A DNA stretch of 64,000 bases, from contig NC_135260.1 of assembly GCF_964204865.1 (NCBI RefSeq), forward strand, positions 14,198,001-14,262,000, given 5' to 3'. The notes beneath the pieces were generated by a model. It made no database searches. It was given only the letters and a program-made list of their open reading frames with translations, and was not told the DNA's origin. The DNA is from Styela clava (Eukaryota). This document shows, in pieces, positions 273-32,415 of this stretch. Position 1 is the first letter of the stretch, and each line of letters starts with the position of its first letter. The translations under genes and the position numbers were made by a program.

Positions 273-631
273 ATAAATGATTATTGTGGAGTTTTGTTTT
301 TGTGTGTACTGCGCTTAACAAGATCTGCATTATATGTGAAAATAACCATAATGATTGAAAAAGTATAGACAGTTAGAATTATATAAAAAGAATGCAAATA
401 GGGAAAAAAGTAGTCACCACATGGCCACTCGTGATGCTGGATAGATACCTAAACCAGAAATGATCTATGTTTGAAAAGCAGACTTATGAGTGAACAGTAA
501 GAAATATTGTATATATAAACAATTATTAATTATCACAACAATACCAAACTAAAATTTAATTTGTTACTAGATTTGACAAATCTTTCATTTTTCTCCCAAG
601 TAATGATGTGAACTTCCTAAAATTAGTTTAC

Positions 632-3600
632 CTTCTCTGCCTCTTTCTGAAAGATGGTCTTTCTTCTGAACCATGTTTGCACTGTGTTGCCTCCTTCTAT
701 TTTGTGCGGCTCTGTTTAGTCCATCTGATTTTGCAAGTTTCTTCTCAAGTTCCAGATCATGATGACGATTTTCATGGATGTATTTTGTAGCTGAGACTCT
801 TTCTTGCCTTTGAAAATACAGATATCATTCCAGACAAACTTGATAAAAAATAGAATTAGCAACAAAGCATAACTGCACTAGCGATGACTGAGAGCAGAAA
901 ATTTTATCAAAGTTGGCAAATAATAAAAGTTTCATGTAAACTAAATAAATATGAATAGAAATGGGCCAAAATTGACATATTACCAGAAACTAGCCGATAT
1001 AGCGTATGGCGCTAAGAACACGCTTTCCATCGCACCTTTGATAACCCTGCGTGGGTTAGCAGGTACGACTCCTGTGGATGAAAGTTATGTGCGGAATATT
1101 TGTTGGACTCTTCGCCGTCTTAGGGTGGTTCACCTAACCGCTGGTCAGATACGGCCTCCTGTCTCATCAAGTCCATGCATTTAAAAACAAAAATTGGTTA
1201 ACTTATCCAATATCCTGAATTGTCCCATATCCTACATCGACCGGTAACCGATCGAGAGGTTGTGGTACTCCATATGATTATTGGCTTTCTTGTCCCACAG
1301 GATAAATGTGTAAATCCTATCTTATCCTATACAAAGTGAACAAAAGTTCGCCTGAAACTTTATCCTCAAAATGATATATTTTGGATGAAGATTGCAGTTA
1401 TGCTGTCACTACAACTACAATATATGTCTTTCATTCCAATTTGAAAAAAAAACGTCTATAAACATCTGACTAGGCCTGTACAAGATATTTTCACATCCTT
1501 ACTTTTTATTTTCAGTTGCAGCAACTCTTCCTTTCATAGATTCCATGTTCATTGCAATGGATAATTCACCGAGTTGTTTTGTTAGTCTAAAAGTTGCCTC
1601 CTCTTTTCTCTTTAGCTTTTCCTCGAATTCCCTTGTTATTCTGTCAATCTCAATTTTTCGAGTTTCAAGTTCAGTCAATTTTAATCGATATTGACGCTCT
1701 GCATCAGTTCTGAAACACAAATGAACTGTTTTATGATGGAAGCAGGGCTGGGGAACTCGTTCGAAATCACAGTAGCTCTGGATCCAGCTCCGGAGCTCCA
1801 TATTTCACATAGAAGCTGGGCTTCAGTTCCTGTTGAGGTTTTTGACCAATTGTGGTTTTTAAGTATGACCAACTAACTACTGCCATGGAATATCTGCACA
1901 AATGCAGTTTAGTGGAAGCAGGACTCAAAACGATGATATGAAGGTTTCAAATTTTTAAAATTAAATTTTGAAAATAAAAATTAAACTTTTAAATTAATAT
2001 TATACATTGAAATTTATCAGCTGAAAAAGATAGATTATAGTATTTGTATATTTGAAAAATCTTAAACGTTAAAAAAAATTCGGTGGTTAGAATTTGGAGT
2101 CACTGAAATTCCACCAGCTCCATTTAACACAGTAATCCTGGCTCCAGCTCAAGCAATGTCACAGCTCTGTGGCGCAAGGCTACGGCTCCCCATCCCTGGA
2201 TGAAAAGATAACTAAATTATGAAAGCTCTTCCTTTCATGAAAAGATGATATCACAATATTAACAACCATATGATCCCAAAGAAAGCTTACCCCATTACTG
2301 TTTTGACTATTATCCTCTGTCATTGGTAGGCTTGACAATACCATTCCCTTTGGATCAAATGTTTTAACCTCATTTGAAGTATCAACAAAATTACAAAATA
2401 TCTGTTCAGTAAGGGTAAATAAAGCACAACCAGTGCTAGCTGGACAATATAAAATGCTGGCGTTTTGAATTTATATACAGAAAACTTCATCAGGGCATGA
2501 TATGGAAAAGACTCCTCCTGCCTGTAAAGAAATTCGAAACATCCGCAAATTACATTATTTTGCTAACACCGGTTGTGCTTTATTTACCCTCGACATGAAT
2601 ATACCTGGTGGTAATCATGCGCTATATGTTCTGTAGGTTTTTGTGGTGAAATATTAAACGTAAGATCTTGTGTTTTCCAATATTACATCTAGTAAAAAAA
2701 AAATCAAACAGTAGAAAAACATAGAAGTTTATTTATTTCCTACACAATCAGTGCATTCTTCCTCAGCTTTGCTTTTGCCTGTTGAAGATCATCATGGGCT
2801 TTTGCAATTCTTTGTTTCGTCCTCTCCTCCTTTGCATGAGTGGCTTCAACTTTGACCTTCAAACAAATCAAATCGATATATATATACTATGTGCATGCCC
2901 CCAATAGACAATACGTTTATTTCGTCGTGCTAGAAATCATGACTCAAATTCGAAATAAGAAAAAAAAATATGCATCACAGTAACAGATTTCATTGCAATT
3001 GAGTGGAAGTCGCGAAGGACCAGAAATGGTCATCATAAGTCTGCGACACCAAGATTTAAAACAAGTTAACATTAAAAATTGAAATAAAAGAAAGCAATAA
3101 ACACAACGAGAAACTTAGTCCTTCAATAATTTACCAATAAGGTTGATATGAATCTTCATATATGATTTGAGAGAGAGAGTAAAAATAAAAGTCGGGAAAA
3201 TTCAATTGATATACAGTAATTGTAAAATAAATCACCATATCATTCAGCTGTGCTTCTGTACAATTGCAGCAATTAAATTTTCATCTATTGTCATATGCAA
3301 CATTAAATCGAGCAATCATTTTATTTGATAAGAAAAATTAAATTAAGATGGAATTTTTTCATATGAATTTATGAAACAATTCATTACCTTTTCTGTTTGT
3401 TCAATCGTAGTGTTTAATCTTTTTTCTTCGTCCAACATCTTTTTAGCCATTGCTGAGAAAAAGACAAAAAAATCTATTACTTCACATTTTTTTGGTTTTC
3501 AATAGTTGCTTGAAACTGAGAAATTAAGATTGAATTTTATCACATCGATCTAAGTTTTGTATCTGCCAGATTTAAATTGGTACAAACGGTATTTGTGTGA

Positions 3601-5594
3601 TATTTACAAAATTGTTATTATCGTTTTATTTTTATTGATGAATAAATCTGTGTCAGAAATAGAAATATTTAATTTATGATCTACAGAAAACTCACTAAAA
3701 ATTTTCTTCACCCCATAGAAAAAACAAATTTGATTGAATGCACTATTTATTTGAATTAAATCCTCTAAAATACTCTACTGAGTAGCTATTGAATATGTGA
3801 GTACCATTTTCATATTCTCTCATATTTCTTTGCAATAATCTTTTCTTTTTAATGACGTCTCCTTCCACTCTTTTTATTTCTCTTTCTTCTTGCTTGTGTT
3901 GCCACATGTGATCCTGAGAATGAAACGCAAATCATGAAACAAGATAGAAATTTCAATCTGGCATTCCATTCCTCTGACATTTCTTTAATGCTTGAAAGAT
4001 AACAACAATATTATGCAATACAGATCAATTTGTATGGGACGTTTCTCTGTACTTTCATTTAGAAACAAGTTTCGGAGCAAACGTTTATTGACAGCTAATG
4101 TTCTAATGACATAGTTAGGCACAGACTACCAAATTTTCAACATTATGTGTGAAATGCAAGTTCACTTGACTAATGTAAAATAAACTAATGGGTGTCATTT
4201 TCAATCATTTATTTAAAAGAGTTTATAACGGTAGAAACATCGCCGGAGCCACAATTGTGCAATGTCATTTGGTCTCCTGGTACAGATTTCATCTGGGCAC
4301 TTGGTATTTTGAAATTTGACGTTCGAATAATGTCAATTTGATAAAAAAAATAGGTCCTTGAAGTGAAGTTGCAATCACTTCTCATCTGTGACATCATAAG
4401 GAACCCCATCATCAAATGTCAATTATAATGATTAGAATGGCCAAAAAATAATGCAAAGGAACTTTTCATCCTGACATGTGTCCCTAAGCACTAGCCTTTT
4501 GCATCAACAATGTACATCGCATTCATACACACACACATATCAATTTCAAGAATATGAAATATAAAAAATGAAAGTATTACCTCAATTATTTTCATTCTTC
4601 TTTCAAATTCTTTTTCATAAGCTGCTGTTTTATGAGCAAGATTAATAACATTAGTTGGTTCTGAATCTGGTTTCTTGAGAGCGGCTACCCCGGCGCGAGG
4701 AGGGGGAACAGTTAAACCTCTCACATTGAAAGTATGGTTGTATCTCCTGGAGTCTAAAAATCCACTAGGTCCCAGAGTTCTCTCATTTTCTCTGCAAATT
4801 TCAAGTGAATTGCAATGATTTAGCTATGAAATCATTAACCACATTTTTACAAAGTTCAGTAGGCTATAGGCTATACAATCATAACAAATTGGCACATTAC
4901 CCTGAGAGATTGGCACATCTCACATGTTCGTTAACGCTTTGTTTACTGCATGGTACAGAGTGTCAAAAAATTTGAGTAATTCATTGAATAAATAAATAGA
5001 AATACATACTTTAAAAATTTTGCATATTCTACTCCAGACATTTCTTTTTGTTCGTCTTTCTTCACATCTCGTACAAACCCAAGGCTTGTCCGCCGAGGAC
5101 TTGTGGGAGTCTGAATACAAGGCTTTAGATGAATATAATATTCTGTTTTTGAAAATGACATTCCAATTTTAATTTTAGCTTATCTAATGCAGGTTGTCAT
5201 GTATAAACAGAGTAAACAATATATATTGCTTCGTAATCTAGAAGAATTTCCACGCTGCTGTCATAAATGTCAATGAAATTTTCAATAATAATTTCAGACT
5301 CATTTTATGGAATTATGAAAAAGAAATCACCATCAGAAAGCCAGTTCTTTCGATACACAAACGTGTATATTAATATTTACTCATTACCATGCACAAATAA
5401 GTGTATATGAGTACCTTTGTCCTTGGTTCCAGAGGTTGATGAACACTGGACGGCCGAGTGACATACTCATATCTATTCTGTAATTTAGGTCTCATTTCGA
5501 ATGGTAGATTGGTGAGAGTGTGATAGGTTGATTGAGCTTTCGGGCCTCTGTCCAAATATGGAACATGCATTCCATGGCCAAGATGAGAAGGCAT
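632..5594 (-). CDS. Uncharacterized coiled-coil protein (at least 8 coding exons, about 390 aa visible, 3' end unresolved)
   Basis: Phase-consistent GT-AG exons 5415-5594, 5010-5122, 4581-4791, 3805-3913, 3388-3452, 2744-2856, 1503-1709, 632-807. Spliced product MPSHLGHG...KEFERRMKIIE|DHMWQHKQEEREIKRVEGDV...TDAERQYRLKLTELE...QERVSATKY...ERGRE is E/K/R-rich. The last exon still ends in a donor (gtaaac at 631). Confidence 0.8.
993..1330 (+). mobile_element. tRNA-derived SINE
   Basis: tRNA-like head GCCGATATAGCGTATGG (A box), B-box-like GCAGGTACGACTCCTG at 1059-1074, unrelated body and (ATCCT)-type tail at about 1315-1330. Lies in an intron. Confidence 0.6.
1743..2198. mobile_element. Non-autonomous hAT-like MITE
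   Basis: Terminal inverted repeats (TIRs) cagggctgggga / tccccatccctg, GGCTCC/AGCTCC subterminal repeats, degenerate 8-bp target-site duplication (TSD) gatggaag/gatgaaaa. Confidence 0.6.
2412..2590 (-). other. 29-bp inverted repeat (predicted pre-mRNA stem) in an intron of the coiled-coil gene
   Basis: Arms 2412-2440 and 2562-2590 match at 27/29 positions. Both mismatches are G:U pairs on the - (sense) strand. Confidence 0.7.
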
Positions 5595-6104
5595 TTTGTA
5601 ATTGAATATACAGAATTTAATATAAATGAACCTAATGAGTTGTTCAAAGTAATATATTATAATAAAAAGTGTTCAGTGCATTAATGTGCTCGACTTGAAT
5701 TTACCAACAGGACATACTTGGAACTACACATATCTTATCAAAGTTTGAAAACGGTGGTTTGTCCCTAGTTCCGTGGAATTGCCCTTATGTACTACTGGGC
5801 CAAATGAAAATTTTTCGGGTAGTGTGCTAGCCATATTTATTTCCGGCTGTCAACAATTGCGACATTCAACTTCTAATGATGGCGCTCACACCACTGAACT
5901 ACAAAATAAACACCTTAAAACAGCCATTATTGTGACATACATTCATGCACAGATAATAATGATTTTATTAGCCTTTTTTGTAATATGCTCTGAAAATGAG
6001 GTCGTTGAACGCCACAAAAAAAATTTTGCAGGTCAGTTTGCCAATTATTGCTTCAAAACAAGTAGCCTACCACAAGCAAATAAAAATACTTCTATGCATT
6101 AGAC

Positions 6105-6735
6105 CAGGGGCCTCCAACACGCGGCCCACCAGGCATTTTTTTGCGGCCCGCATCATGGTTGGGATTTTTCCACAAAAAACTAATGTCACTATTAGTAAGT
6201 TTTATCGTGTCATTTATCATCAAGAGTCTGGTCTGACAAACTGTATAAAGTGAAGCAAAAATTTCCCCCTGTTATCCATGTCCATGTTTTATTCCATTGG
6301 TATAATTCAATTATAAATGCAATAATTTCATTATGCGTGTTCATTGTGACGAAATAAACGATTTTGTTCAGTCCATTGTGCCGAAGAAAGGTTCGCAAAG
6401 CTAATTGCACATTCATGTCGCATATGTTTGGCAGTTCTTATATTTGCAAGCAGTTTTTTTTTTCAACTATGAATGTTAGTCATTCCTCCGCGCACGACTA
6501 ACGGACGAGCATTTTCATGTTGTCTTAGGACTAGCAAACCAACGCAAAATAAGGCCAAACATCGAGACCACGTAAATGAATATGTTTCATGTCTCATTTG
6601 CTGTAAGATTCAAGTGTAATTTCAATACATTACATTCAGATACCCTCTTTCGTACCTAATTTATTGGCTTGCGGCCCGCGTAGTGGATAAATTTCAAAAA
6701 GTGGCTCGCGACATGTTCTGAGTTGGTGACCCCTG
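6105..6735 (+). mobile_element. Non-autonomous hAT (Buster/Charlie-type) element with transposase remnant
   Basis: TIRs caggggcctccaac / gttggtgacccctg, perfect 8-bp TSD CATTAGAC (6097-6104, 6736-6743), internal decayed hAT C-terminal motifs (MFGSSYICKQ...RLTDEH). Confidence 0.85.
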
Positions 6736-9729
6736 CATTAGACTATTGCCAAATGGTTTTGAATTTGAGTCTGACTTGATCTGACTTTAAATCTTTAGAA
6801 ACAGTATGTCAGTAAAAACTCCCCAATCAAAATCCTGGCTCATTATTGATCATGATAAACAAAACCTCTCAAGAGTGTTGTCTTCAATTAATAAATTTAG
6901 TGCCAGCAAATGCACTTGACCTTCATCTGTTTGTGAGTGTCTGTTTCACAAATACAGAACTAAAATAAAAGATATACCGGTAGTCTATGTTATCCCCTAT
7001 CAAAGAGTCTCACATTCAACTAAATATAGATTATGCACATATTGATATAAAATGCTCAAATATTAATACTCAAATAAAAAAAATAACTTAATCTGTTCAC
7101 ACAGTATTTGCAATTACGCTTTTTCTGTTTCCTGTTTTATCACTTCTATTGTGGATGTACACTATGGCAGATTTATCTTCACCATTGTATCAAGGGGATA
7201 TTTTAGTATTATGTGAAGGCAGTCTTGAATACCTCCTTTGTATTTATACAGGTAATCTGAAACAAAGGACACTTAAGAGTCACGTTTCAATAATAAAAGA
7301 ATAAGTCAATACACGATGTCGATTATGATACCACTTTTACCGACAATGTAATACAACACCATTCTTAAAACATAATGTGGTACAAGTTAATTTCAATTAG
7401 TAATTTTTAAAGTAATGAAGGTCATTCCAGGGCCTGATGCCTATTTTATCTGCTTTGCTACAAAATTTTGATAACATTTGTAGTCCAATGAATAGTCAAA
7501 AGTCATCTTATGATAAGATAAGAGAATAAAAAAATAGGAAATAAATATACATCTCTAGTAATTTTTGATATATCAAAATACATTTTTTAGCTTTCTACAC
7601 CATCCAAGGGTATGTGTATAGAACAAACAAATGTCTAGTCAGTTATTTGCATACACAAATCTCTTGCTATAAACGAAGTCAAAAGGTATGACTATTTTGT
7701 TTATCTGATAGCCGATTACTGTTATAGTTTTTAGATTTGTCAATGAGTTTTCATTCATAAATAATTCTAGTCATTCTAGTGATTGCATTGAAGCGTGGAT
7801 ATGCGACTGAAATAAGAAAAATTTCTGAACCCTTTTTTCAGAAATTTATCTACCTGCATACTTTATCAGACACTATGAAGAAAGTTGATGTTCAATTTAC
7901 TTAAATTTCCAGATCTACTTTCGACTTTCGCTGTGTATGATACAAGTTAAACCCGGAAAATGACTCAAATAAAAATGGGAATGCAAAAGAGAAAATAAGA
8001 TTGTAGTAATTAATCCCTAATTAATTAATTTTGAATGAATTATGAGTGATGCCCATGGACAAGTGATTGTAGTTGATGTCTTCTGGACAAAACATGGAAG
8101 ATACAAAAAGGTGGTGAAAAAGAGTTCAATCTATGATTTATGTTCAAAATTGAAAAAAATAAAACAAACATACATGCACACAGTCGAAAAAATCAACGAA
8201 TAATCCACCCAAAAAACTGCTAAGCTATGTAAAATTTGTAGGATTGGCATTTTCTAAATAAAAATCTTGATGGTGGCGTGGATCTCAACACAGCAACACA
8301 ATGGTGAGTTAGTTGTGTATGTAACTTTATACCACAATGAATTTTACTGTTTTGGGAGAGGAAATTTTCATTTTTTATTTGTGTGCATTATTACTAATAT
8401 TGACTCATTTAGTAGTATCGGGATTATATTTATACACACATCACAAACTATTCAAAAAAACGAGTGCAAGTTGCACAAAGCACCAGTTAATGACCCAATA
8501 ATGGTTGAACAGCAAAAAACAATGATATGCATAGTGATTGATGAACTTGTAAATCAGCAAATATACTCAAATAGCCTGAATAGCAGAGAATACTGGAGTA
8601 GATAATTTGAATAGCTATTGCCTGATTATGGTATTGAGTCACACTCCATATGTTGATATGGCACCTACTACAATGCGAGGCACTTGGCACTCAGGTAAGT
8701 GATCATTTCTGAATACCATACCTGTCTTCCTAAAATATGATTAAAATTTGGGACTCCAGGAATTACAAAGTTCTTGAATTAGTAGTACATCTGACAGTAC
8801 AGTACAGCAGCAGCGGCTACCTATCTCAACTTTGAAAAGTTGGTCTACCACAGTACTACTGTATGACTGTACTGAGGCTATTGCAACTTGACAAGTCCTG
8901 CTACTGCTGTAATATATATCTGTATATTGATTGATAGGCGCTGCCAATATACTGATAAGTCTATATCAGTGGGGGTAATTACTCCTAAAAGGGTAATTTG
9001 ACAATTTTTATGGGGTAGTCAGATGTTCACTGACTTAACAATTTCATTTGTGATCGCTGGTCTATGAGAAGGCTGGACGTGAAGCGTAAAGAACCTACAA
9101 CAATGCTTTGACGTAAAGAACGCTCAAAATGATGAGAGAATGGCACAGAGAGGCAACACAAAAGGCTACATTGCTATGATGACACATGAAAATACTACAA
9201 ATGTGGAAACCAATGTGGAATGTGAGTTCGTGCATGATAATTCCACTCACTTAATTGTAATAGAAACTGCTGTCAAACAGTACGGTACTTTTCTGGAAAT
9301 GAAGATCCACATTAGAACTTGTAGGTCTGTAGGTAGCAAGCCATTTTGGGGTAAAGCAAGCGCGATTACCGTAGTTATAACGATATGGCTACGAAAGTTG
9401 AATTTCTCAGATTGCGTCTTACTCGAAAATGAGAATATCACATTATTTTCCAGAAGGCATTGACATTTTTGATTTAATTTCATTCAACTTATCGCCATAG
9501 AAATAAAATAAGGAAACAAGCTTATGATTTACATTAATATGGGATGCTTTCCTCTTTGTTGGCTAGATTTGATAGTTTGGTATAATAGATGCAGTGACAT
9601 CTCTCCACTGAGAATAAACCAGGTCTCTCTTCTGTTCTTTTGTTTACAGGTCTATAAGTTCTTATGTTATTGTGGCTAATTAAGTCTGTAATCAATATTG
9701 CAGTAACAGAACTGCAGAATGGTCTATAC

Positions 9730-10507
9730 TAGTGGTCTGCAACCACCGGGACGCGGCCGGTCGGCAGAAGGGTGACAGAAAACGGGAAAGGCCCCAATAA
9801 CAATTGTGCAATCTAACCCCAAACACTGCGACTAAAAACAGCAAACCAGGCAAACACAACGCATTTTAGCAGCATGTCTGACTTCAAACGTAACTACGCA
9901 AGTATGTCGCAATAATGCTGCGTCCTTTGCATCTACGTAAAGAAGTCTTATTCCAATCCGAATAAGATCTCTCAAACAAAATGATTCTCGCTGACAGTGT
10001 GACTACTAACTAGTAGCTAACCGGTCATACCTAGTCAGTGTTAATTCTATACTTTATGATAATCCTAAGGGTAGCACATTTTGTAGTAAAATTAGTTATG
10101 GCTAAACAAACATAAATAACGTCAAACATTAATCAATACCCAGACATAGCTACAGGAGCTTTACAGGCATAATTACCTTTTCCGACATCGTATTTATGTG
10201 AGGCCAAGTTTTTAATATTGACAACTACAAAAACAAAATATCAAAGTAGTCTGGATGTAAGATAAGGTGTATCACTTTCCGCCATATCTCCAAATTGGGA
10301 ACAGTTAATGGTCAGTAAACAAATACAGATATCGCATTAAATAGCATCACCTTCGTTTTTGAGTATACTGTCAACATGAATATCCTAACTCGTATAATTT
10401 ATCACATAAGCTTAGTTCGTTTGTATAAAAGTCTGAAAGTGGTCGGACAAAATTTTGGTCAGGCTTTACCGGTCCGTCACTCAATTAAAAAAGGTTGCCG
10501 ACCACTG
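9730..10507. mobile_element. Non-autonomous hAT element
   Basis: TIRs tagtggtctgcaacc / ggttgccgaccactg, perfect 8-bp TSD GTCTATAC (9722-9729, 10508-10515). Confidence 0.85.
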
Positions 10508-10689
10508 GTCTATACTGATACTGCAATATGTATTAGAAGTAACTAAATATGTGAACACAAAAATAAAAGCTAGATTATAGTAAAAATGTACAAGCATATC
10601 ATCGCAAAGTCGCATTACAGCATAAAGAAACCAAAACTTGATCTCCCTTGATTGATGCCGAAACATGCTATGCTAGGTCATAGGTCAAG

Positions 10690-10737
10690 CAGCTGATTAA
10701 CAGGCGTCGTTGTCACGACAACAACATCAGCTGATTA
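10690..10737. promoter_or_regulatory. Candidate RFX X-box flanked by two E-boxes
   Basis: GTTGTCACGACAAC at 10709-10722 (consensus GTTGCCATGGCAAC), between two identical CAGCTGATTA 10-mers (10690, 10728). YY1-like AACATGGCG at about 10838. Confidence 0.45.
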
Positions 10738-10884
10738 GTGATATATGTCGCCCACTACTGGACGAAACTAAGCATGGACGATGGCGATGTGATGACATTT
10801 TCGAGAAGGTAAAAATGAGGTTACCATTAAACGATATAACATGGCGCGAAGAAAGCGCGACTGAGTTAAAGAATTACGTCAAAA

Positions 10885-12941
10885 GTTTGGTGCATTCCGT
10901 ATTCCACCGAAAAATTCTGTACTTTACAATAGCTTGCCTCAATTTTAAGTATAATAACCTAAAGAACATGTTGTGAGGTTATCTTGAACAAGATTCAAAA
11001 ATTGTATGTCGAGAACATGTCATAAGTTTCTGCTAAACATCGCCCAAACAAAGAAATTAATATCAAAATTCTAAATATTGGTATTCCACCAAAAAATGAT
11101 GTACCTGAAATAACGACAAGTATTCTAAAACCAAGTTTTAATGAAATTGTATGTCGGGAACATATGATAATATCTTGTCAAACATGGTCCAAATTAGGAT
11201 TGTACACCAGAATTCATAACTATCGGTATTCTACCTAAAAAAAATCTGTATTTTCTGTTAGACGGTCCTACGACCAAGTGAAATATCCTGATAGAACATA
11301 TTGTAAAGTCATCTGGGACAAAGTTTTATAAAAATTGTATGCCGGGAACGTATGGCCCGAACATGAATTTCACACAAAAATTCACGAATATCGGTATTCC
11401 AAACGGATATTCATTTTGATATTTGTTTCTAGCTTTGGTCATATGAGAAGGGAAAACACATATTTGTCATTTGAATTGGATTTCATTTAAGAGCTCTCAT
11501 AAATTTGTATAATATTTTGATCAGATATATTTGACACCGTTACCACTGATTCACATGCACAAATCGAATTTGGCAAATTTATCCGAAGCAACGTATATTA
11601 TAAACGTATATATACTATGTGTAGTAAATCAGTCTCCTCTGAAAATAATTTTGAGTTTCGTAATTCATTATTTACGGGGTGAAACATCTTTAGGGGTCCA
11701 ATAGTGGCTGGAGATATATTCTTGTCAATTTATCTTTATTGGGCACGTAGTGGACATAACGATCGTTTCAAAATTTTATTGTTATTATTTGTCTCCGTCA
11801 ACACGTTTTGAAGAAATCGCTTTTCTCTTCGAATACTGGACCAATTGCTTTGAAATTTTCAGTGGGTTAAGATAAAAATTTTCTTCAAAAGGCTATTACT
11901 TTTTTTTCCGCTATGACGTCATCAAAATATGTGACTCTACGTGTCCATATATTTGAGCATAGCTCTCTTGTTTTCAATTCGGAATCGTTTATTTCTCTAT
12001 TTCTCAATTTCCTGATCAATTTGTTTCTTGTTTTCAACTTTCCTTTTTGGGACAAACAATCAAATTATCTTTGTATTCCCTATTCAGAGAATTATGGAGT
12101 TCACCATACACTGTATCAATCTCTCCAAGACGTTTAAATCGCCTGTTGTTTAGTTAAGTTCGCTTCTGTTCTTACTGACTTTTTTCTATGATTCCTTTAG
12201 TGCAATTATCTCGTGATATATTTTGTTTCTCAGAAGCTGAGACTTTGAAACAGAAGGTCGAATATCTCGCATATCCAATTGAATTTTCATATCTGCCGAA
12301 TCACCTACTATCAGACTTTTCCAAAAAGATATTTCGGGGACACAATATGTTCATTTAGAATATCTTGGGTAAAAGTGGGGACGGCAAACGAAAAGTAAAG
12401 GATTTTTGGATGGAATACCGATATTTATGCATTTGGATGAAAATTTCTTTGTTTGGGTCCTTTTTAAATTGAAATTTATGACATGTTCGCGATATACAAA
12501 TGATATAAAACTTGGATCGAAATGACTTCACAATATGTTTTTAGGATATCTCACTTCAATGTGGGACCGCCCATCGGAAAATACAGAATAACCGAGTGGT
12601 ATATCGATATTCGTAAATATTGATGTAAATCTCTTGTTTGGGCCATGTTTGGAAAGATATTAAAACATGTTCCCGACATACACTCATTATGACGTCACAA
12701 TATATATTTCTCAGCGTATCGTACTTAAAAGAGGAGCCGGCAACTGGAAAGTGCAGAATTTTTTGAGTGGAATATCGATAAATTCATGTTTGACAGGAAT
12801 TCATGAAATGTTCCCGACATACAAATTTCAAAAAACTTAGTTCGAGATGTCACAATACGTTCTTTTGGATTATCTTACCTAAAAGTGGGGCAGCCCATGG
12901 AAAGTACAGAATATTCTGGTGGAATATGGAATGCACCAAAC
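10885..12941. mobile_element. Foldback-like element with long modular inverted repeats
   Basis: Left arm about 10885-11400 and right arm about 12400-12941 are inverted copies (outer ends tttggtgcattccgtattccacc / ggtggaatatggaatgcaccaaa). Each arm has about 4 diverged 145-185 bp units carrying GTATTCCACC and TGTATGTCGGGAACAT motifs. Confidence 0.65.
11736..11972 (-). mobile_element. HINE/DINE-1-like non-autonomous element, family A
   Basis: Ends aacaagagagc...gctcaaatatatggacacg and cgtgcccaataa (on - strand). Related copies at 51867-52257, 53788-54043 and 60017-60698. Confidence 0.6.
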
Positions 12942-13306
12942 ATTCAACCTATATTTGGCAATTGAATAGCCTACATTCCGACCAGCTTTCCTATTTTCAG
13001 TCGCGCTTTTTATACCGCATGTTATATCGTTTTCTGGCAACCCTATTTTAAAGTTCCGAAAAATAGAGACTAGACTTTGGTCTTTGACAAAGAGACTATT
13101 TTGGTCACTTTGGTCTGTCGGGTCAGCCGGGGCGGATGACAGAAATAGCATGAAAAATAGAGAAGAGATCAAATCAATAAGCTGAAAACTGTCGAATTGA
13201 TAAACCTAGCTGTATTAAGTATACAATATTTCTGGCTCCTTCAATTACCGAAACGGGGAAGAATTTTCAACTAATGTTAAACCTTTTTTGACAAAGTTTA
13301 AGCAAC

Positions 13307-14038
13307 ATGACATTACTTTTAGCTTTCGATTTTGATCATACCATTGTTGATGCCAACACTGATACTGCAATTTATAAGCTCAGTCCAAATGGAGATATAC
13401 CATCTGAAGTCAAGTTACCATATAAAAAAGGGCAGTGGACAGCATATACTGCATATATGAATGCAGTTTTCCAATATCTTCATGCAGAATGCGGTGCAAC
13501 AAAAGACAGGTATGAGGAAGTACTAAGAATGCTTCCACTCACTGCCTACATGGATGAGATTTTTCAGTTTATTAGACAGCACCAGGCCAATATTGATTTT
13601 ATCATTATATCAGATTCGAATACATGGTTCATCGATATAGTATTGTCGCAACACAATGCTAAAGATCTCCCAATCAAAGTTTTTACCAATGAAGCATTAT
13701 TCAGAGATGATGGAATGCTTCAAATGACACCTTATCATATTCATGACCATGATATATGCCCTTACAATTTATGCAAAGGAAGAGTGATGCAGGAATTCAT
13801 TGCTGAACGTCAACTTGCTGGAAAATCCTACAGCAACATAGTTTATGTTGGGGATGGAACTAATGATTATTGTCCTGCAACTACTTTGAGTGATAAGGAT
13901 ATGTTATTTGCAAGAAAAGGATTCTCCCTACATAAAAAATTGATGAAACTCGAGAATGATGTTTTGAAGTGTGAAGTCGAGACATGGGAAAGTGGCGTTG
14001 AGATTCTTCCTTCTCTGAAAAAAATTCTTGAAAGTTAA
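13307..14038 (+). CDS. PHOSPHO2: PHOSPHO1/PHOSPHO2-family HAD phosphatase (pyridoxal phosphate phosphatase PHOSPHO2-like), single coding exon, 243 aa
   Basis: HAD motif I AFDFDHTI, motif II IIISDSN, CPYNLCKG and motif IV YVGDGTNDYCP, all typical of this family. Splice-acceptor-like ttttttgacaaag about 10 nt before the ATG. Confidence 0.9.
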   Translation: MTLLLAFDFDHTIVDANTDTAIYKLSPNGDIPSEVKLPYKKGQWTAYTAYMNAVFQYLHAECGATKDRYEEVLRMLPLTAYMDEIFQFIRQHQANIDFIIISDSNTWFIDIVLSQHNAKDLPIKVFTNEALFRDDGMLQMTPYHIHDHDICPYNLCKGRVMQEFIAERQLAGKSYSNIVYVGDGTNDYCPATTLSDKDMLFARKGFSLHKKLMKLENDVLKCEVETWESGVEILPSLKKILES

Positions 14039-14709
14039 ATAGTAAATACCTATATTAAAAAAAAATTCATGAGTCATATTTTTTTTAATTCATTTTTTTT
14101 TCATGCCAATAATGTGCAAAATTACCTTTGGGAAAATATTGGATTTTGTGAATGTTACACTGTGCATCAAGCATGACTATGACGCAATTCACTTCTACAG
14201 AATGTCTGTAATCTATTTTTTATCACATTTGTCTTTTTGTGAACAGGCATTAATAACCTGATTTGAAATATATTATGGGGTTTTGTTTGTAATATAATCT
14301 TGGTGACCCTGTACCATTGATAATATTATGACCTACATGCCATTTTAAACTAACAGTTGTTGAATTCAGCATGTTTTATTGTTGTGATATATATATTTAT
14401 AGAATAACATTTTGCACATTTGAATTTAATTGGTTATTATATTTAAAGCCTCAATTACTTCAAGTTTGTTTATTCTTTTAAGTTAGCTGCCTTTTTGTAG
14501 TCTTCTTAAGAGTGAGGGTGTGATGCACCTATGCAAATATTTGTATTCAATGTTGCCTATTTACGTACTTCAACTTTGTCACAAAAGAGCTAAGCACAGT
14601 TTTTAAAAATTGCTTATTTTCAAGCATTTATATTTTTAGACAATCATTCTTGTTGTAATTCAGTACAGAAATTGATCATACATAGTATGAGCATTTATAT
14701 TTACATTTA

Positions 14710-14765
14710 AATAAAGCATACTGGTACATATTTTATATCAATGTCATTATTTTCATGTATCACAG
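14710..14765 (+). promoter_or_regulatory. Poly(A) signal of PHOSPHO2 next to the splice acceptor preceding GDPGP1
   Basis: AATAAA at 14710-14715; acceptor ttttcatgtatcacag ending at 14765, 33 nt before the GDPGP1 ATG. Confidence 0.45.
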
Positions 14766-14797
14766 ATATTACCATATTTTTCTAATGTTCATCACAA

Positions 14798-17105
14798 ATG
14801 GAAAAGGGAAAACTTTTCACATATTCTGTTGATGATTTGATTGAAAAACCAGTTGAATGGGAAGAATGTGGGAAATGTTTGTCTGCATTTGACAAGCAAC
14901 TCCGAAATGCATGGGATAAGGCAGTAAAGGATGGTAAGTGATTAAAAGTAGTTCTGAATTTTCTGGTTTAATAGGAGAAAGTCCCAGTCAAGAAAATCTG
15001 GAAAGAAATTTACCAAATCTTGATCTAGTTGTCATAAGTATATGGGATGCCTGTGGAAACAATCAGGCTTGTGCCCTTGATCAACTAAACTGGAGCATTA
15101 AGTCCTTGCATTTATTTCTACCCAATTATTTTTTATCCATTGCTACTTTTACATTATCAATTTCATCTTTCTTTTCAAATTTTGTCTCTCGGCAACATAT
15201 ATTTTATCTGATATGAGAAGGTAGAATTATACCATTTCTAAGATAAAACAGTGTTTGAATAAATATATTAAAAGTATGTTTCATTGTGGATATTTCTTTG
15301 AAACTAGGTAATACCGGTATTGCCCTTTCTAGAAAAATTACATTTACTACTAAAGATGAGATACAACTCAAATTACTGTGGATTATGTGAGTCAATTCAT
15401 TTCAGCTACTTTTGGGTAGGTTTGTTTCGCTACTCATTGGATGATCTTGTTTACAAGAAGTTGAATTTACAGCAAAATGAAGACTTTCCTGTCCCTTGTG
15501 TCGCTCAGCTGAACCCACAGCGAGCAGTGAACAGAAGGAAAAGAGAATGTTTTGAATCTATGAATGATGATTTTGATGAAAAACAATTCAACTTCACAAA
15601 AATAGCAATACAAGAAATTTTAATGGAAGTTTGCTTAAAATCTGATGACAAGGTCATAACAAAAGAAAAAACTGAGATTTTGTTGAATATCAGTCCAATT
15701 GAATATGGTCATATTCTAATTGCAACGAATTTGAGCGATTGTCTCCCACAAAAACTAACAGTGAAATCACTACAAATTGCCTTCGATATTCTACAGCTAA
15801 GCTCCCAGCCAGGTGAGAACTGTCAGTTTATTACTCATATGGAAGATATCGAGTTCATGAATAATTATGAGAATAATGGACAAATGTTTAGAGAATTTGA
15901 ATAAAATTGATTTTTCCACCAATCAGATATTGCTTTTTCCCAAATATTTGTACATGAATCTTTATCGAAGCTCCTTTTTGTGGGGTTAGAGTTTACGTGT
16001 TTACTGACCAAATTGGTATTGAGATAGGTAGATTAAATTATTTAATGAAAATTCTTGCACTTCGCAGGTTTTCGGCTTGGGTTCAACAGTCTGCATGCAT
16101 GGGCTTCAATCAATCATTTGCATTTCCATGGAATGTACTGCGATCACGAAATTTTTGGTGATATATTGCCTGCAGAATATCATTTATCAAGTTCATGTGC
16201 ACTAATCAATATAGCAAGTCCTCTGCCTGCATTTGTCTTTGTTGTTCCTGATGGTGACAAAGGCAGGCGAAAGGTGGATCAATCATTTCATATATTTGCT
16301 ATTGCGTGCAAGCAATTTATTATATTCAAACTTTGCGCAATACTCTTGTCTCGAACCACAATCTGATCATGACCAAAAATATATGAATGATAATTTTTAC
16401 TTATTTCATATCGTTCTGGAAAAGGTATTTCTGGTTTATATTTTGCTTCAATCTGTTTAGTTGTCGTTCGCTGTCTAAGATGAGTGGAGAATCTGTTTAT
16501 TTCTATTAGCAAAATAAACTAAACTAAATTTAGTTCAGCCTTGCGATACCAGCAAATGTCCAGTTACGTTAGGACCATGAGATGTTACAATTTTTTCAAC
16601 TTTAAAAATTGACGAAAATTATTATTAAGTTTTAACTCGACGGAAGATCATGAACAGTATCATATTTTATTTGTAATCGACTGATGGAGATGGTGTATTT
16701 TGTGGAGGGGTAAATAATATCATGCAAAATCATAAGTAATGCTAAATTCTTTTTGCACAGATTGCAGAAGATGTTGTGAAAGTTACTGATTATCTTCATC
16801 AAATATCCACACCATACAATATACTTTTGAATCGAGGAAAATTGCTTCGGAAAGATGGTACTCAAAGTGATAAATGGACAACCAGAGCCTTGGTATTTCC
16901 CCGAAAATCAAGCAAAAATCTTCAACCTGCTGAACCGTTTGATGTAGCATGTATAGAAGTTGGTGGACATTTTCCTGTAAAGGCTAAGGCATCGTTCGAA
17001 GATTTAACGGATACTAAAGTTTCAAATTGCCTGAAAGAAGCTGCGTTAGAAGAAGAAGTTTTTAATGATATTGTCCAATATGTCAAAATCTTACTGTCGG
17101 GCTAA
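14798..17105 (+). CDS. GDPGP1: GDP-D-glucose phosphorylase 1 (VTC2-like HIT family), 4 exons
   Basis: Phase-consistent exons 14798-14933, 15420-15812, 16068-16273, 16761-17105. Family motifs GLFRY, AQLNPQR, FNFTKI, INISP-type [27 protein letters not shown] (HIT motif), PYNILL. Confidence 0.9.
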
Positions 17106-18355
17106 ATGATTGAAAAGTATGTTGAATGCAAATTTTTGCAGTTTTAATTCTTTTTTTAATCAATTACAATCAACAATCAATCGCACACCCGCCCGGACTG
17201 TAACGATGCCAGTAGTTTAGCTGGGCTGGTCTGAAAGTGGGCATCAATCACTACTGAAATTTACACATCACGATTACGTAAATTTCCAACGAAAAAGTCG
17301 ATTGGCAGAGGGCATATACAGGCTTGTTTCCAAATAATTGATAGACTTCATGCTCTAGTCTGCGTGTGCTATTTTGAAACAAGAAATTTTCCACTTGCAG
17401 CTCTGACATTTTCATTTAATGGTTATATGTCAATCATTTCGGCAACTGTACTCTGACATATATTTGAACATTAAAAAAGTAGACAGACAATAAATTGTAG
17501 AGATGCAAAGTTGAAAAAAGGTATATGAAAGTAAGCGCCCACTCACAAAAAAATAACACAAGCACACAAAACAGTGTTTTAATTCAAAATCGGGCAATAC
17601 TTTTAACTTGGTTTAAAATGAGGAAGCACCCAACAATCGCATATAAAAACCCGAATAGTTTCCGAGCAGTGATATGCAAAAAGCACTAGCGCGACAAATA
17701 CATTAACTTTACAATAACAGTGTAAGACTTCGAAACAGTGAAATTTAAAAATCGATGTAGAACAAATGTTTACTGAGCAACTTTTGTGGTAATTTGTCGC
17801 TGTTTTGTACAGTATCTAACGTATTCATAGCCGTTTCGGCTAACTTGTTCGGCTGTTTACCGTTTCTCTTCCGTCGTTCCCAGTACGATAAACAATACCT
17901 GTACTATGTCTGAATTTACTTAGTGCAGCGTATTTTGAAAATGGGTATTAGCTAGTTGATTTTTACATAGCACAACAGGATTGTCATAATTTAATCCACG
18001 TTAACGAGTTTGTCGAGCCCGAAAAATATATTTATAGATTTTGAAAAAGTCTAGAAAAAATGCTAAGTAAATATAGTAATGAAGACACCAAATCAACAAT
18101 ATTTCCGGTCTCAATATTCGTTGGGTATACTTTTACGAGACAATAGTACTAATCTTGCCTGCTGTAGTTTCAGGTGCTGATTGCGTCATCGGTTTTGCTT
18201 AACGTATGAAACAGATAACGCAAACGGAAAAGCATTTATATATATATATATATGAATGAAAATAATATATATATATATATTCAATACCAATCAAAAAAAT
18301 TTTGAATAAAAATACATAAAACGATTGGTTGTGTTATAGCATGTATTATTGGTAA

Positions 18356-19202
18356 ATGAATGTGATGTTACCGTATATTGCTATATCGTAAATTGTCTCT
18401 GACTTGCAAGTTACCCGTTCACCCTTCAGCTTCAACGCCCACGTGAATGAAGATGCGTTAAAAATCTCTATATGTTTTTATTCGTAAATTTCCACAACAC
18501 ACAGAATATAAATCTTATGACATTTATCCAGACTAGCTTAGAATGGTTTACATCGTCTTCTCTCTCCCTATCGAAAGATATCGGAGTCGTATTTATACGT
18601 TGATCATAAATCCAATTAAATACTGTAAACGTGAGCTCGTGATTCACGTTATAAACAGAAATTCCTATTATCTCAACAAGGGTAATTAGGTACATCGTAC
18701 GGATGGGAACTTAGATATAATTATTTCAATCAGTGCCAAAGGTCTTGAGAATATAGATTTTAATTTGATAATGACTGGATGGAACCTGTTATGTTCTTAA
18801 ACCTGGTGTAATTTGATTCCTACGAAAGTCTTTGTTCGAATTTTGGGAAAAATTAACTTTGTTTTCATATTTTTAACATGAAATGGGGTACATTTGGGGG
18901 TTAGTTGCTATATTATCTCCCCATCTTACTAACTGGAAGTTTAAAGATTTGGCACCCTCTAATAAATTGAAAATATATATTTCATCAATATAACACGTTC
19001 TGTACACCTATAGCATATATGGTTGTTAGATGAATGTGATGTTACCGTATATTGCTATATCGTAAATTGTCTCTGACTTGCAAGTTACCCGTTCACCCTT
19101 CAGCTTCAACGCCCACGTGAATGAAGATGCGTTAAAAATCTCTATATGTTTTTATTCGTAAATTTCCACAACACACAGAATATAAATCTTATTCCATTTA
19201 TC
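18356..19202. repeat. Two direct copies of a 173-bp sequence
   Basis: 18356-18518 is identical to 19030-19192 (163 bp); the match extends to 18528/19202 with 2 mismatches. Confidence 0.9.
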
Positions 19203-19455
19203 TCTCATTTGGGCCACTATTTGGACCGTTTGTTTTATCAAGAAACTTTGCCCAAAACTGAGAGATGAAGGACTTCCTAGAATACAACGGCTTCGGCAAT
19301 ACTTGGCTGCTCGCAGGGAACAAGTGAACCCTGTTGAACCACCTCAACCTCTTGTGCAAAACAATAGACAAGATCAGGGGGGTCAAATCTATCAATCCAG
19401 ACCAAATCCCAATAATAGATTAAATTCGAACTTATACCCTAGTCTGGCAGACTAG
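19186..19455 (+). pseudogene. Orphan terminal coding-like segment (hydrophobic stretch plus Pro/Gln/Asn-rich tail ending LYPSLAD*)
   Basis: 89-codon open frame ILFHLSLIWATIWTVCFIKKLCPK...NLYPSLAD* in locally GC-richer sequence, with no ATG or usable acceptor; it begins inside the second direct-repeat copy. Confidence 0.35.
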
Positions 19456-20953
19456 TCGAATAGCAATGCTCATATTGTACATATATATTATACTTTAACA
19501 TGATTTCTTTCTAACATGTGTTTTACGAAGAATTAAATACTTTGTGCATTTACATCAATACCTATAACAATAATATACCTCATGTATAACTATCTCAGGA
19601 ATAACTATATTTAATCTATCTTTATACAGCTTAAAATTTATTTTTTATTTTTAGTTGAATTTCATGAAAACAGCACGTCATTTCCGCCTTCTCAGCCCAA
19701 ATTGCATCCTTAGAATTCTCCGAACTCCTGCGGGGGAGTTATGTAGCCAATTAGTTGTTATGTAACTACAAAACTACACCAAATTGGCCCAATTCGTGAG
19801 AAACTCATGAAAACGAAAATTAATTATTCCCGTTATAGCAATTATCAATTTCTCAAAATCCAATTTCAAGATTTAATAGCATTTCGGTGCCATCCCATGT
19901 AAAAATAAAATTTATTTCCAGTAATATTCCAATAACGTAAATTCGAAATATCTTGTTAAAACCAAATTATCCACTTGAGAACAATTTTTTACATCTCATA
20001 ATTGGAGTAAGTACGTGACCAGGAACGCGGTGACTTGGCAATAACAAGTTAATTGCTAGTAATGAACTTCAAGAAAACACTTTTAATAATGTTTGATTAT
20101 AGTGAACCGAAAGCTAACCAGAAACCGGAATGACGCGTGATTCTTTAATCGTTAATGTAAAAATCTGTTTCTTTATTCTATTTTAATTGCTTGGTAGAAA
20201 GCTATATATTCAGCAATGTGTTTTGTGTTAATCAGACTAGATTTGATCAAATTGTGTGTACATTGTATTTCTGTATATATTGTCGGAATTGCAATAAACT
20301 CATAAGGTGTTTTCAAACGTCTCCTTACTACAGCCGAAGGCTATCGACAGATAGACAGTTCGAGTTAACGAACGCAAGACAAAACTATTGTCAGTCAATG
20401 CTGGGGTTATAATACATAAACCAGACCAATCTACAAACAATCTATGTGTAGTGGTAACTAATCACTATAGTGTAATACTGAAATTATTAACTTAAAATAT
20501 ATTCAAAAAGAATCCATAGACTTGCATCATGGCAGATTCACAGTCCACGTGTTGGTAAAATGGTTGGTAAAATGGTAAATACCGTTCATTGTACAAATTA
20601 TACTTGGATCTATCTCGTGAGCTACTATTAGTCATAAAAGCAATTAGTTGTGCGTTACATGCCACGTGTTCATCAAGGTTTCTGCTTATTGATGAAATCG
20701 TTCTTAAATATATAGACATCCATTTTGGTGCACATTTTCCCTACTACCCGTCTCTCTTGACGCTTCAGCAGCATCATTTACTTTAAAAATTTAATTTGTT
20801 TCTTTTCGTCACTGCTCCAGTGGAAGTTCGTCGTATAATGAACATTGTAATCTTTATTATTGGAAGATTTATTGCCCTGGTCGAAATTGGAGTTGCTTAC
20901 ATCCATGGTTGATAATCACCTTCCGAGTTTCAAGTTTTTGCTATTAATATATT

Positions 20954-30400: not shown

Positions 30401-32415
30401 ATAAAAAACTTTTCTATGTTAAAAAAAAACTTCAAAATCCAGCTTTACAGGCTAAATTGAGAAAAACAATGAAATGAGCATGACCATCCCTCGTGATCTT
30501 CAAACTGCGATTCTAAAATAATTTGATCGGCGCTTTTCAAAATATTTGTGAATACGTTCAATATTTATAAACTTCTACCCGAGCTATAACGAGGTATAAA
30601 CTCCTGTTAAATTTAGCAGTATGTTTGGGTACGGTCGATTTCATTATCTTTACTAAACTGTTCACAAACCTACTAATAATAGGGCGATCAACCGTCTGTA
30701 TGAGAAAAATTCTCGGTTTGAAATTTCCTGTCTTTCAAATGAAAAGAGAAATACTTGACGAACATCGCCAAGTTTCTATAGTACGGAAAATGAGGAAATC
30801 ATTCATGTCATCCGACTGTCTGTAAAATTCGTGCGAGGCGTGAACGATATTCGTTCGCTTATTGCCCAGTGATATTTGTGTCGATTTGATAACACACATA
30901 AACAAATCATTGGCAATAAAACTAAAGTACAACTCACTATTCTACGATCTGGAATATTTTTATAACTGTTCAGAACTGTGTACAATTTTGGTTCATTTGC
31001 TCCACCAAGTCACAAAAACATTGTATAGATAAAAGCTTATACTGCCAACTTTGATTGATTTTATAGCGGTTATATGAACTGCACACAATGTTCCGTACCC
31101 GCAAGAATAAAGTTCAATAAAAATTTTGAGCAATACTAGACACCTGTAATAGATCACAACGACTTATAATCCAGCTTAATTTAATGATGAAGCGACCATA
31201 CCGATTTAAATCACGCTATATAATTGCACTGATTTTACTCCAAGTTAAGAAAAAAAGGCAATAAAATCTTTTTTGTGCTCCAATTATTCACGTGCTGTGA
31301 TGGGAGGTGTTGCGTGAGAATTTGTAGTACACGAATTGACTGTTTATATTAAAATTATAATTCGACTGTATGTGCACACAGCGTTTGAAAATCCATTTTA
31401 AAGCATGGGCCAAGATAAATTGCGTCATATTTCCAGTTTCAATTAACTTTTGGTTATTATAAAGAGGCTATAATTTTCTTCTTTCTGTAGTTTTAGGCCA
31501 CAGTGGCGTCTAATTAAGATATTATTAAGAAGTTGAAAACGAACCACGATCAAACCAAACCGGAACTTTTAGTCAATTGCCCAAGCCGTGGAGGTTTTAA
31601 CATCACTTCAACTCAATACCAAAACAACATTCGATTTCCTCAGTTTCCCATTCTATGGTTGTTGACTATGGCCATGTTCGTTGTGAGTCACTCAATGGGC
31701 AGAATAATGCTCAATAAAGAAATAATGATCAATTATGTTTAGTAGCAGCAATAAAAGACCGAGTACTAAATGGTTGGTTATGAAACCAGGCTAGCCGTTT
31801 AAAATTTGGAAGGTCAATTTTGTCTCGTTGCATTGTATCATATTGATAACATATTGTTTTATTTTTGGCTTGTCCTCAATTTTCCCGCCGCTTTACAGCT
31901 TTTCGCCGTAACTATAGTGCCGAGCAATTTCAAATTCACGGGGAATCCACAGAGCCCTATATTTTTTTGTTTTTGTTCAATTCATAAGAACACATTTTAC
32001 GACGTATTAGAACACTGTCGATCTTGTTCAGTAAATTCGGTGCTCAGCTAAGACCTCACTGATACCGATTCACGACATTTGTATCCCCATATATTTGAAC
32101 ATCGTTTGACTTAATAACACAGCGAGTTTTTCCAGCAGTTATAGTAGCAGGAACAGCTGAATCGCTTTTGCTGCAATGTCAATATTACACGATAATATAC
32201 GGCATTATCTTGTATTTGTATGTAGTCTAAATAAAATGTTAATTAAACTGAATAATACAAAATATAATAAGAACTTTAGTTTACATTCTTACAAGCGTGA
32301 GGCGTGTGCATTTAGTAAGCTGTAGATATGCAAATGTATATGAAAACCTATGCACAGTACTTAAAAAAAAATTTATGGAAAATAACAATATATATATGTG
32401 ATAAATTTTCTTGAG

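What the first reader, a model, noticed from the sequence alone, without database searches (positions are those of the whole stretch)
13284..17105. PHOSPHO2-GDPGP1 looks like a two-gene trans-spliced operon
Seen: both genes are on the same strand and only 759 nt of AT-rich, 3'UTR-like DNA separates stop and start, with no promoter-like segment. Each ATG is preceded by an acceptor (13296 and 14765) with no convincing donor upstream. AATAAA (14710) lies about 50 nt before the GDPGP1 acceptor. Established: tunicate operons are resolved by spliced-leader (SL) trans-splicing, and in Ciona the upstream 3' end directly abuts the downstream acceptor. Inference: one promoter near 13.1 kb drives a dicistronic precursor. 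A shared non-coding first exon is the alternative.
Basis: partly seen in the sequence, partly recalled or inferred. Interest (0 to 1): 0.7.

Follow-up and report, generated by a model that had tools for sequence, protein, structure and literature searches.

The report
Sea-squirt two-gene operon, zero spacer
In a sea squirt, the assembled RNA of a phosphatase gene stops at the same two DNA letters where the RNA of the next gene, a sugar-nucleotide enzyme, begins, so the two are likely read as one transcript that a spliced leader would split, an ordinary arrangement already known from the sea squirt Ciona.

Summary
An intronless PHOSPHO2-like gene (13307-14038) and a four-exon GDPGP1-like gene (14798-17105) lie 759 nt apart on one strand; top hits are named Styela clava. 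In 8 RNA-type contig sets from 3 studies, no listed contig bridges the acceptor AG at 14764-65. The farthest upstream contigs stop at 14765 and 14766, past the AATAAA, and the earliest GDPGP1 contigs start at 14764 and 14766. That is the zero-spacer layout of Ciona operons, with a single-exon first gene. The genome has a tandem array of candidate spliced-leader genes (136 matches, control 0). The leader itself was not seen on GDPGP1 (0 of 8), so trans-splicing is inferred. Conserved adjacency in other tunicates could not be tested. Verdict: a likely Ciona-type operon (about 0.8), a new member of a known kind. This scan has noted the same layout in other sea-squirt genomes. Interest is low.

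The parts
13070..13306 (+). Unique 5' region of PHOSPHO2: likely promoter/start region and unspliced 5' UTR with three short upstream ORFs (ATG 13136, 13150, 13274)
   Evidence: Contigs start at 13099 (X2), 13140 (X6), 13052 (X8) and upstream of 12950 (X1), all unspliced; a dispersed repeat ends at 13069; uORFs
13295..13302 (+). Two acceptor-like AGs (ending 13296 and 13302) with a branch-point-like motif at 13271; use not shown
   Evidence: read through unspliced in 4 of 4 runs
13307..14038 (+). PHOSPHO2-like HAD phosphatase, intronless, 243 aa, with DxDxT and GDGxND motifs; one match in the genome
14039..14765 (+). PHOSPHO2 3' UTR (727 nt), transcribed up to the acceptor AG
   Evidence: Upstream contig ends 14759, 14766, 14705, 14705 and 14753, 14765, 14697, 14654
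14710..14715 (+). AATAAA 50 nt before the AG; read past by at least some molecules
   Evidence: 4 of 8 upstream contigs extend 38-51 nt beyond it
14764..14765 (+). Cistron boundary: unpaired acceptor AG, predicted trans-splice site and likely poly(A) site of the upstream mRNA
   Evidence: Farthest upstream ends 14765 and 14766; earliest downstream starts 14764 and 14766; bridged in 0 of 8 runs; previous AG 49 nt upstream
14766..14933 (+). GDPGP1 exon 1: 32-nt 5' UTR with an out-of-frame uORF (14785-14832), coding from ATG 14798
15420..15812 (+). GDPGP1 exon 2; an alternative acceptor starts it at 15473 (RefSeq isoform X2, 297 aa)
   Evidence: Joints in 4 of 4 runs, alternative joint in 1 of 4
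16068..16273 (+). GDPGP1 exon 3 with the HIT-type motif HLHFH
16761..17700 (+). GDPGP1 exon 4 (stop ends 17105) and 3' UTR, which runs to or beyond 17700 in 3 of 4 runs

Best explanation
PHOSPHO2 and GDPGP1 likely form a Ciona-type two-gene operon: their assembled RNAs meet without spacer at the AG at 14764-65, and a spliced leader is predicted to be joined there to start the GDPGP1 mRNA. Mechanism: a promoter near 13.1 kb (inferred from contig starts) makes one precursor. PHOSPHO2 keeps the original capped 5' end and a 5' UTR of roughly 170-250 nt, unspliced in the contigs (shown for at least part of the molecules). The spliceosome attacks the unpaired acceptor with the SL RNA donor (inferred), which caps GDPGP1 at 14766. 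The upstream piece ends at the same AG and is polyadenylated there (end shown by contigs, tail not seen). The three GDPGP1 introns are cis-spliced (shown). The two enzymes have no evident pathway link.
For: (8 contig sets, 3 studies): 0 of 8 bridge the AG among listed contigs. The two farthest upstream ends are 14765 (X4) and 14766 plus one unaligned letter (X2); 14766 is an A, as the first tail letter would be. The two earliest downstream starts are 14764 (X8) and 14766 (X7). The site was named before the RNA was laid; a crude null gives about 1 in 100 for such a meeting in a 100-nt window (0.016 for 60 nt, 0.005 for 200 nt). No donor in the spacer; spacer CpG-poor. Candidate SL RNA genes exist: 136 exact matches of a leader-plus-donor motif against 0 for the control, most of the 100 listed in one cluster on contig C8, part of it with a 1,634-bp period. 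The array unit has a TATA-like box, a leader ending in AG, a consensus donor and a short stem-loop. Leader end and genomic acceptor share exactly 2 letters, so a leader/genomic branch would start a contig at 14764, where X8 starts. Ciona precedent: cistrons abut with no spacer (PMC1488885); 60% of operons start with a single-exon gene (PMC2760879). Trans-splicing is stated for Botryllus, a related ascidian (PMC3691228).
Against: No leader letters on any GDPGP1 contig (0 of 8; only X7 and X8 reach the acceptor). No poly(A) letters were displayed. No dicistronic contig was seen. All data are contigs, not reads: no strand, cap or true ends; runs are 'RNA?' by guess (the spliced joints support it); a filter may drop records; table 8 left 26 rows unshown; no DNA run was laid as control. 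4 of 8 upstream contigs stop at 14654-14705 (all depth under 8) and 4 of 8 downstream contigs start at 14819 or 14905, next to SNPs, so only half of the ends are informative. A start at 14764 also fits a pyrimidine-purine initiator or a cis exon ending in AG. Unlike 16 of 18 Ciona cases lacking AATAAA within 40 nt, this locus has one at 50 nt.
Confidence: 0.8

Rival explanations
1. GDPGP1 has its own promoter inside the PHOSPHO2 3' UTR and starts, capped and without leader, at about 14762-14766; the genes are merely close neighbours.
For: No leader letters in 0 of 8 runs; X8 starts at a C-A step (14764) that fits an initiator. The Botryllus fuhc pair, 227 bp apart, showed no leader on the second gene (PMC3691228).
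Against: It leaves unexplained why upstream RNA ends at the same two letters (X2, X4) and why the start sits on an acceptor as good as the gene's cis acceptors. The spacer has 2 CpG in 727 nt.
Confidence: 0.08
2. GDPGP1 is trans-spliced at 14765 but from its own promoter within PHOSPHO2 (an outron of a few hundred nt overlapping the upstream gene), so there is no shared transcript.
For: Median Ciona outron-type 5' regions are about 458 bp, and a two-promoter model is discussed there (PMC11155486, passages). Contigs cannot show where a discarded outron began.
Against: The PHOSPHO2 RNA itself reaches the AG (X2, X4), so its transcripts already carry the acceptor; no promoter-like composition in the spacer.
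Confidence: 0.07
3. One promoter and a shared non-coding first exon: GDPGP1 is made by cis-splicing from an upstream donor to 14766, skipping PHOSPHO2.
For: A cis exon ending in AG would also start a contig at 14764. One 6-of-8 donor match lies at 12625, outside the stretch laid.
Against: No joint into 14766 in 4 of 4 runs laid over 12950-17700; no loose end at the acceptor in 8 of 8, while the exon 1-2 splice showed as a loose end in 4 of 4; PHOSPHO2 contigs are unspliced at their 5' end; 12625 lies in a repeat.
Confidence: 0.05

Closest known systems
Ciona intestinalis/robusta SL-resolved operons without intercistronic DNA (Satou 2006, PMC1488885: passages and section 17 read, 2 of 3 supplementary files searched; Satou 2008, PMC2760879: passages and section 10 read)
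   Same: Two genes, same strand; upstream 3' end at the AG of the downstream acceptor; single-exon first gene (60% of 1,310 Ciona operons); first gene need not be trans-spliced; genes unrelated in function.
   Different: Another ascidian lineage with a larger genome (377 Mb) and a different, longer candidate leader. An AATAAA lies 50 nt upstream, whereas 16 of 18 Ciona cases lack one within 40 nt. Leader addition is not shown here. Whether Ciona has this same gene pair is unknown.
Caenorhabditis SL1-type operons and Oikopleura operons (as described in PMC1488885 passages)
   Same: SL1-type operons have little or no spacer and carry AATAAA in the upstream cistron, as here.
   Different: Oikopleura has 23-30-nt spacers and most C. 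elegans operons about 100 nt with SL2; neither fits contig ends meeting at the AG.
Botryllus schlosseri fuhc-sec / fuhc-tm pair (PMC3691228, passages)
   Same: Close same-strand gene pair in a related ascidian with a featureless gap.
   Different: There a 227-bp intergenic region remains, linked transcripts were seen and no leader was found; here the gap between RNAs is zero and no linked contig was seen.

Membership tests
Ciona-type SL-resolved operon | Same-strand genes whose transcripts lie less than 100 nt apart | tested here: met
   Upstream contigs reach 14753-14766 in 4 of 8 runs; downstream contigs begin at 14764-14776 in 4 of 8
Ciona-type SL-resolved operon | Upstream poly(A) site directly at the AG of the downstream acceptor | tested here: inconclusive
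   Ends at 14765 (X4) and 14766 plus one unshown letter (X2) fit, but no tail letters were displayed and contigs cannot prove an end
Ciona-type SL-resolved operon | Spliced leader joined to the first base of the downstream cistron | tested here: inconclusive
   No leader letters in 0 of 8 runs; only 2 reach the site; the X8 start at 14764 equals the predicted branch point
Ciona-type SL-resolved operon | Unpaired acceptor: no upstream cis donor or exon | tested here: met
   No donor of 6/8 or better in the spacer; no joint in 4 of 4 and no loose end in 8 of 8 runs; limited by contig depth
Ciona-type SL-resolved operon | The organism encodes an SL RNA | tested here: met
   Candidate gene array with leader, donor and stem-loop, 136 matches against 0 control; predicted from DNA, no Rfam model matches, expression not tested
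Ciona-type SL-resolved operon | Single promoter and dicistronic precursor | not testable with these tools
   No bridging contig (0 of 8); needs CAGE, nascent RNA or RT-PCR
PHOSPHO1/2-type HAD phosphatase | PF06888 above cut-off with HAD motifs | tested here: met
   234 bits against cut-off 27; the label PHOSPHO2 rather than PHOSPHO1 is the database's name, not tested by a tree
GDPGP1/VTC2 HIT-type phosphorylase | Full-length homology and HxHxH motif | tested here: met
   48% identity over 97% to Ciona GDPGP1, E 4.5e-98; HLHFH in exon 3

The most novel reading that the evidence does not exclude
The locus is a two-way switch. The same precursor is either cut after the AATAAA at 14710, which would remove the branch point and forfeit GDPGP1, or trans-spliced at 14765, which itself creates the PHOSPHO2 3' end. 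It would then be a natural test case for the question left open in Satou 2006 of whether trans-splicing makes the upstream 3' end and whether the two mRNAs exclude each other.
Probability: 0.12. Interest if true: 0.55.

Novelty: new member of a known kind. Interest (0 to 1): 0.25.

Why it matters
It adds one more case of the Ciona zero-spacer operon design, in a styelid ascidian with a 377-Mb genome, which suggests the design is not just a product of genome compaction. I found no paper in the held library on Styela operons (searches; 0 occurrences of operon or trans-splic in the S. clava genome paper) or on this gene pair as a unit; most subscription journals were not searched. A specialist would expect it: about 20% of Ciona genes are in such operons. 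Its one useful feature is having both an AATAAA and the abutting AG, which makes the 3'-end mechanism testable here.

Tried and rejected
No run is on record as RNA; the nine 'RNA?' holders are guesses, 8 of 9 were laid, and spliced GT..AG joints support RNA. The gap 14767-14818 in X1, X2 and X4 lies next to a SNP at 14818 and is not used as evidence. Loose ends at 14842/14880 are a 39-nt match with 7 differences inside a longer unrelated contig; rejected as chance. Conserved adjacency: GDPGP1 orthologues of Ciona, Clavelina and Phallusia were found, but no named non-Styela tunicate PHOSPHO2 among 120 listed hits or among the 9 further PHOSPHO-type hits looked up, so accession order could not be compared. 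Consecutive RefSeq accessions in S. clava show only the same species. 0 of 80 metagenome PHOSPHO-type loci had a GDPGP1 match (only 25 of 80 are 4 kb or longer and none is identified as tunicate). The Satou 2006 supplements gave 0 hits for the gene names (one file could not be searched and may hold the operon table). An SL search using the Ciona Sm motif gave 22 matches against 54 control and no leader among 12 inspected; rejected. The looser leader pattern was not enriched overall (391 against 470), but one 20-mer recurred 6 times in the 100 rows listed and led to the array. Rfam: 0 matches in window 10000-20000. A third cistron downstream: no Pfam match above cut-off for the one ORF tested there, and the nearest acceptor-like site near 18173 is followed by only a short ORF (read by eye). 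Matsumoto 2010 is not held; Gasparini and Shimeld 2011 was seen only as a reference title. PMC13746493 has 0 occurrences of operon terms.

Full report
Observation. The sequence is as described. An intronless 243-codon ORF runs 13307-14038 and matches PF06888 at E 1.9e-69. It has one match in the 377-Mb genome, and its best database hit is named Styela clava PHOSPHO2-like (97%). The second gene has four coding exons, 14798-14933, 15420-15812, 16068-16273 and 16761-17105. All three introns are GT..AG joints in 4 of 4 runs, and the joined frame gives 359 aa, matching S. clava GDPGP1-like and Ciona GDPGP1 at 48%. The 759 nt between stop and start are 73% A+T, hold 2 CpG in the 727 nt up to the AG and have no donor matching 6 of 8 consensus letters. 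The acceptor at 14765 is as good as the gene's cis acceptors on a crude score, but ties for 2nd of 28 AGs in the spacer, so sequence alone does not single it out.

RNA at the junction. One search listed nine probable RNA runs as assembled contigs; eight were laid (3 studies). Upstream contigs cover the spacer as PHOSPHO2 3' UTR and end at 14759 (X1), 14766 plus one unaligned letter (X2), 14753 (X3), 14765 (X4), 14705 (X6), 14697 (X7), 14705 (X8) and 14654 (X9). The four short ends all have depth under 8. GDPGP1 contigs start at 14819 (X1, X2, X4), 14905 (X3), 14774 (X6), 14766 (X7), 14764 (X8) and 14776 (X9); the first four start one base after a SNP (14818, 14904) and say little. No listed contig bridges the AG (0 of 8; 26 short rows were not shown, but the depth bins of X1 and X2 leave no room for one). 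The farthest ends from both sides therefore meet within one base of the AG named beforehand. A crude null puts that at about 1 in 100. Four of 8 upstream contigs run 38-51 nt past the AATAAA, so at least some molecules ignore it. These are contigs: the tool itself calls shared stops a weak hint, and no DNA run was laid.

RNA at the 5' end. Contigs run unspliced through 13296 and 13302 in 4 of 4 runs, starting at 13099, 13140, 13052 and upstream of 12950. X8 does so at a mean depth of 7.9, which is hard to reconcile with the region being only a rare outron (inference). Trans-splicing of PHOSPHO2 is therefore not supported as the main route. A minor share could be hidden, since short side branches are commonly removed from such contigs (my own knowledge of assemblers). 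Ciona first genes may or may not be trans-spliced (PMC1488885), so this does not weaken the operon reading. A dispersed repeat family ends at 13069, leaving about 240 unique nt before the ATG, in line with a promoter near 13.1 kb.

Is a leader available? A pattern with the Ciona Sm site failed. A pattern from parts of the Ciona leader returned one recurring 20-mer. Its exact form has 136 matches against 0 for the control, with a large cluster on contig C8 that includes a 1,634-bp tandem period. In the three units read, a TATA-like box precedes a leader of about 24 nt ending in AG, a consensus donor and a small stem-loop. This is a predicted SL RNA gene; Rfam has no matching model. Leader end and the 14765 acceptor share two letters, so where leader-joined and genomic paths merge a contig would begin at 14764, as X8 does. 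The same start would follow from a cis exon ending in AG or from an initiator, so this is supporting, not decisive. No leader letters were seen in any of 8 runs.

Mechanism. Shown: gene structures, cis-splicing, an unspliced PHOSPHO2 5' region, transcription of the whole spacer, contig ends meeting at the AG, a candidate SL gene array. Inferred: one promoter, a dicistronic precursor, leader addition at 14766, polyadenylation at 14765. I put this at 0.8. Rivals are an independent leaderless start at the junction (0.08), a separate internal promoter with trans-splicing (0.07) and a shared first exon (0.05).

Comparison with what is known. Satou 2006 (passages and section 17) found upstream 3' ends and downstream acceptors directly juxtaposed in 19 Ciona operons, and left open whether trans-splicing itself makes that 3' end. 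Satou 2008 (section 10) counted 1,310 operons, 60% with a single-exon first gene. This locus works like those. Of six defining features, three were met, two were inconclusive and one could not be tested; none was tested and failed. It differs in lineage, in leader and in having an AATAAA 50 nt upstream. The Botryllus fuhc pair (passages) is a caution that close pairs in related ascidians need not carry a leader. Conservation of the pair in other tunicates could not be tested.

Novelty. No paper in the held library describes Styela operons or this pair, but the kind is established, and this scan's earlier unchecked notes report similar pairs in other sea-squirt genomes. Verdict: new member of a known kind, interest 0.25. 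The boldest reading left open is a switch between AATAAA cleavage and trans-splice-made 3' ends (0.12).

Noticed in passing
window about 10797-13069: Degenerate foldback-type element: long inverted arms (about 10.8-11.4 kb against 12.3-13.06 kb, 70-90% complementary) built of internal repeats. Its right arm has 66 matches in the genome, many ending sharply at 13069; three other copies continue with a shared end that this copy lacks. Two PHOSPHO2 contigs (X1, X8) begin inside it, so some transcripts may start in the element.
   Followed up: partly
G000:C8 about 4.23-4.58 Mb (L106) and dispersed copies L100-L105: Tandem array of candidate SL RNA genes, 1,634-bp unit. Five dispersed copies share the leader-like motif in a different, mutually similar context, one followed by a T run; probably part of a mobile element.
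   Followed up: partly
window 14785-14832: The first ATG after the acceptor opens an out-of-frame 15-codon uORF overlapping the GDPGP1 start, so translation would need leaky scanning. The plant homologue GGP/VTC2 is uORF-regulated (recalled, no call); any link is untested.
   Followed up: no
window 15471-15473: Alternative acceptor in GDPGP1 intron 1 (1 of 4 runs). It shifts the frame; RefSeq models it as a 297-aa isoform starting at the ATG at the end of exon 1.
   Followed up: partly
window about 13442-13450: A 9-nt tandem duplication (three extra residues) in the window's PHOSPHO2 allele; 4 of 4 runs and P0001 lack it.
   Followed up: no
window about 585-7260, minus strand: Multi-exon gene with charged, coiled-coil-like exons, divergent from PHOSPHO2; 0 of 5 ORF pieces matched Pfam. 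Its 5' end was not located.
   Followed up: partly
window 18316-18528 and 18990-19202: 213-nt direct duplication, 92% identical.
   Followed up: no
window about 32400-33170 minus; 52400-54600 and 61600-62000 plus: An animal haem peroxidase exon (PF03098), and chondroitin synthase/Fringe-like exons (PF05679, PF02434) with two similar ORF pieces at 52.4 and 61.6 kb that suggest a tandem duplicate.
   Followed up: no
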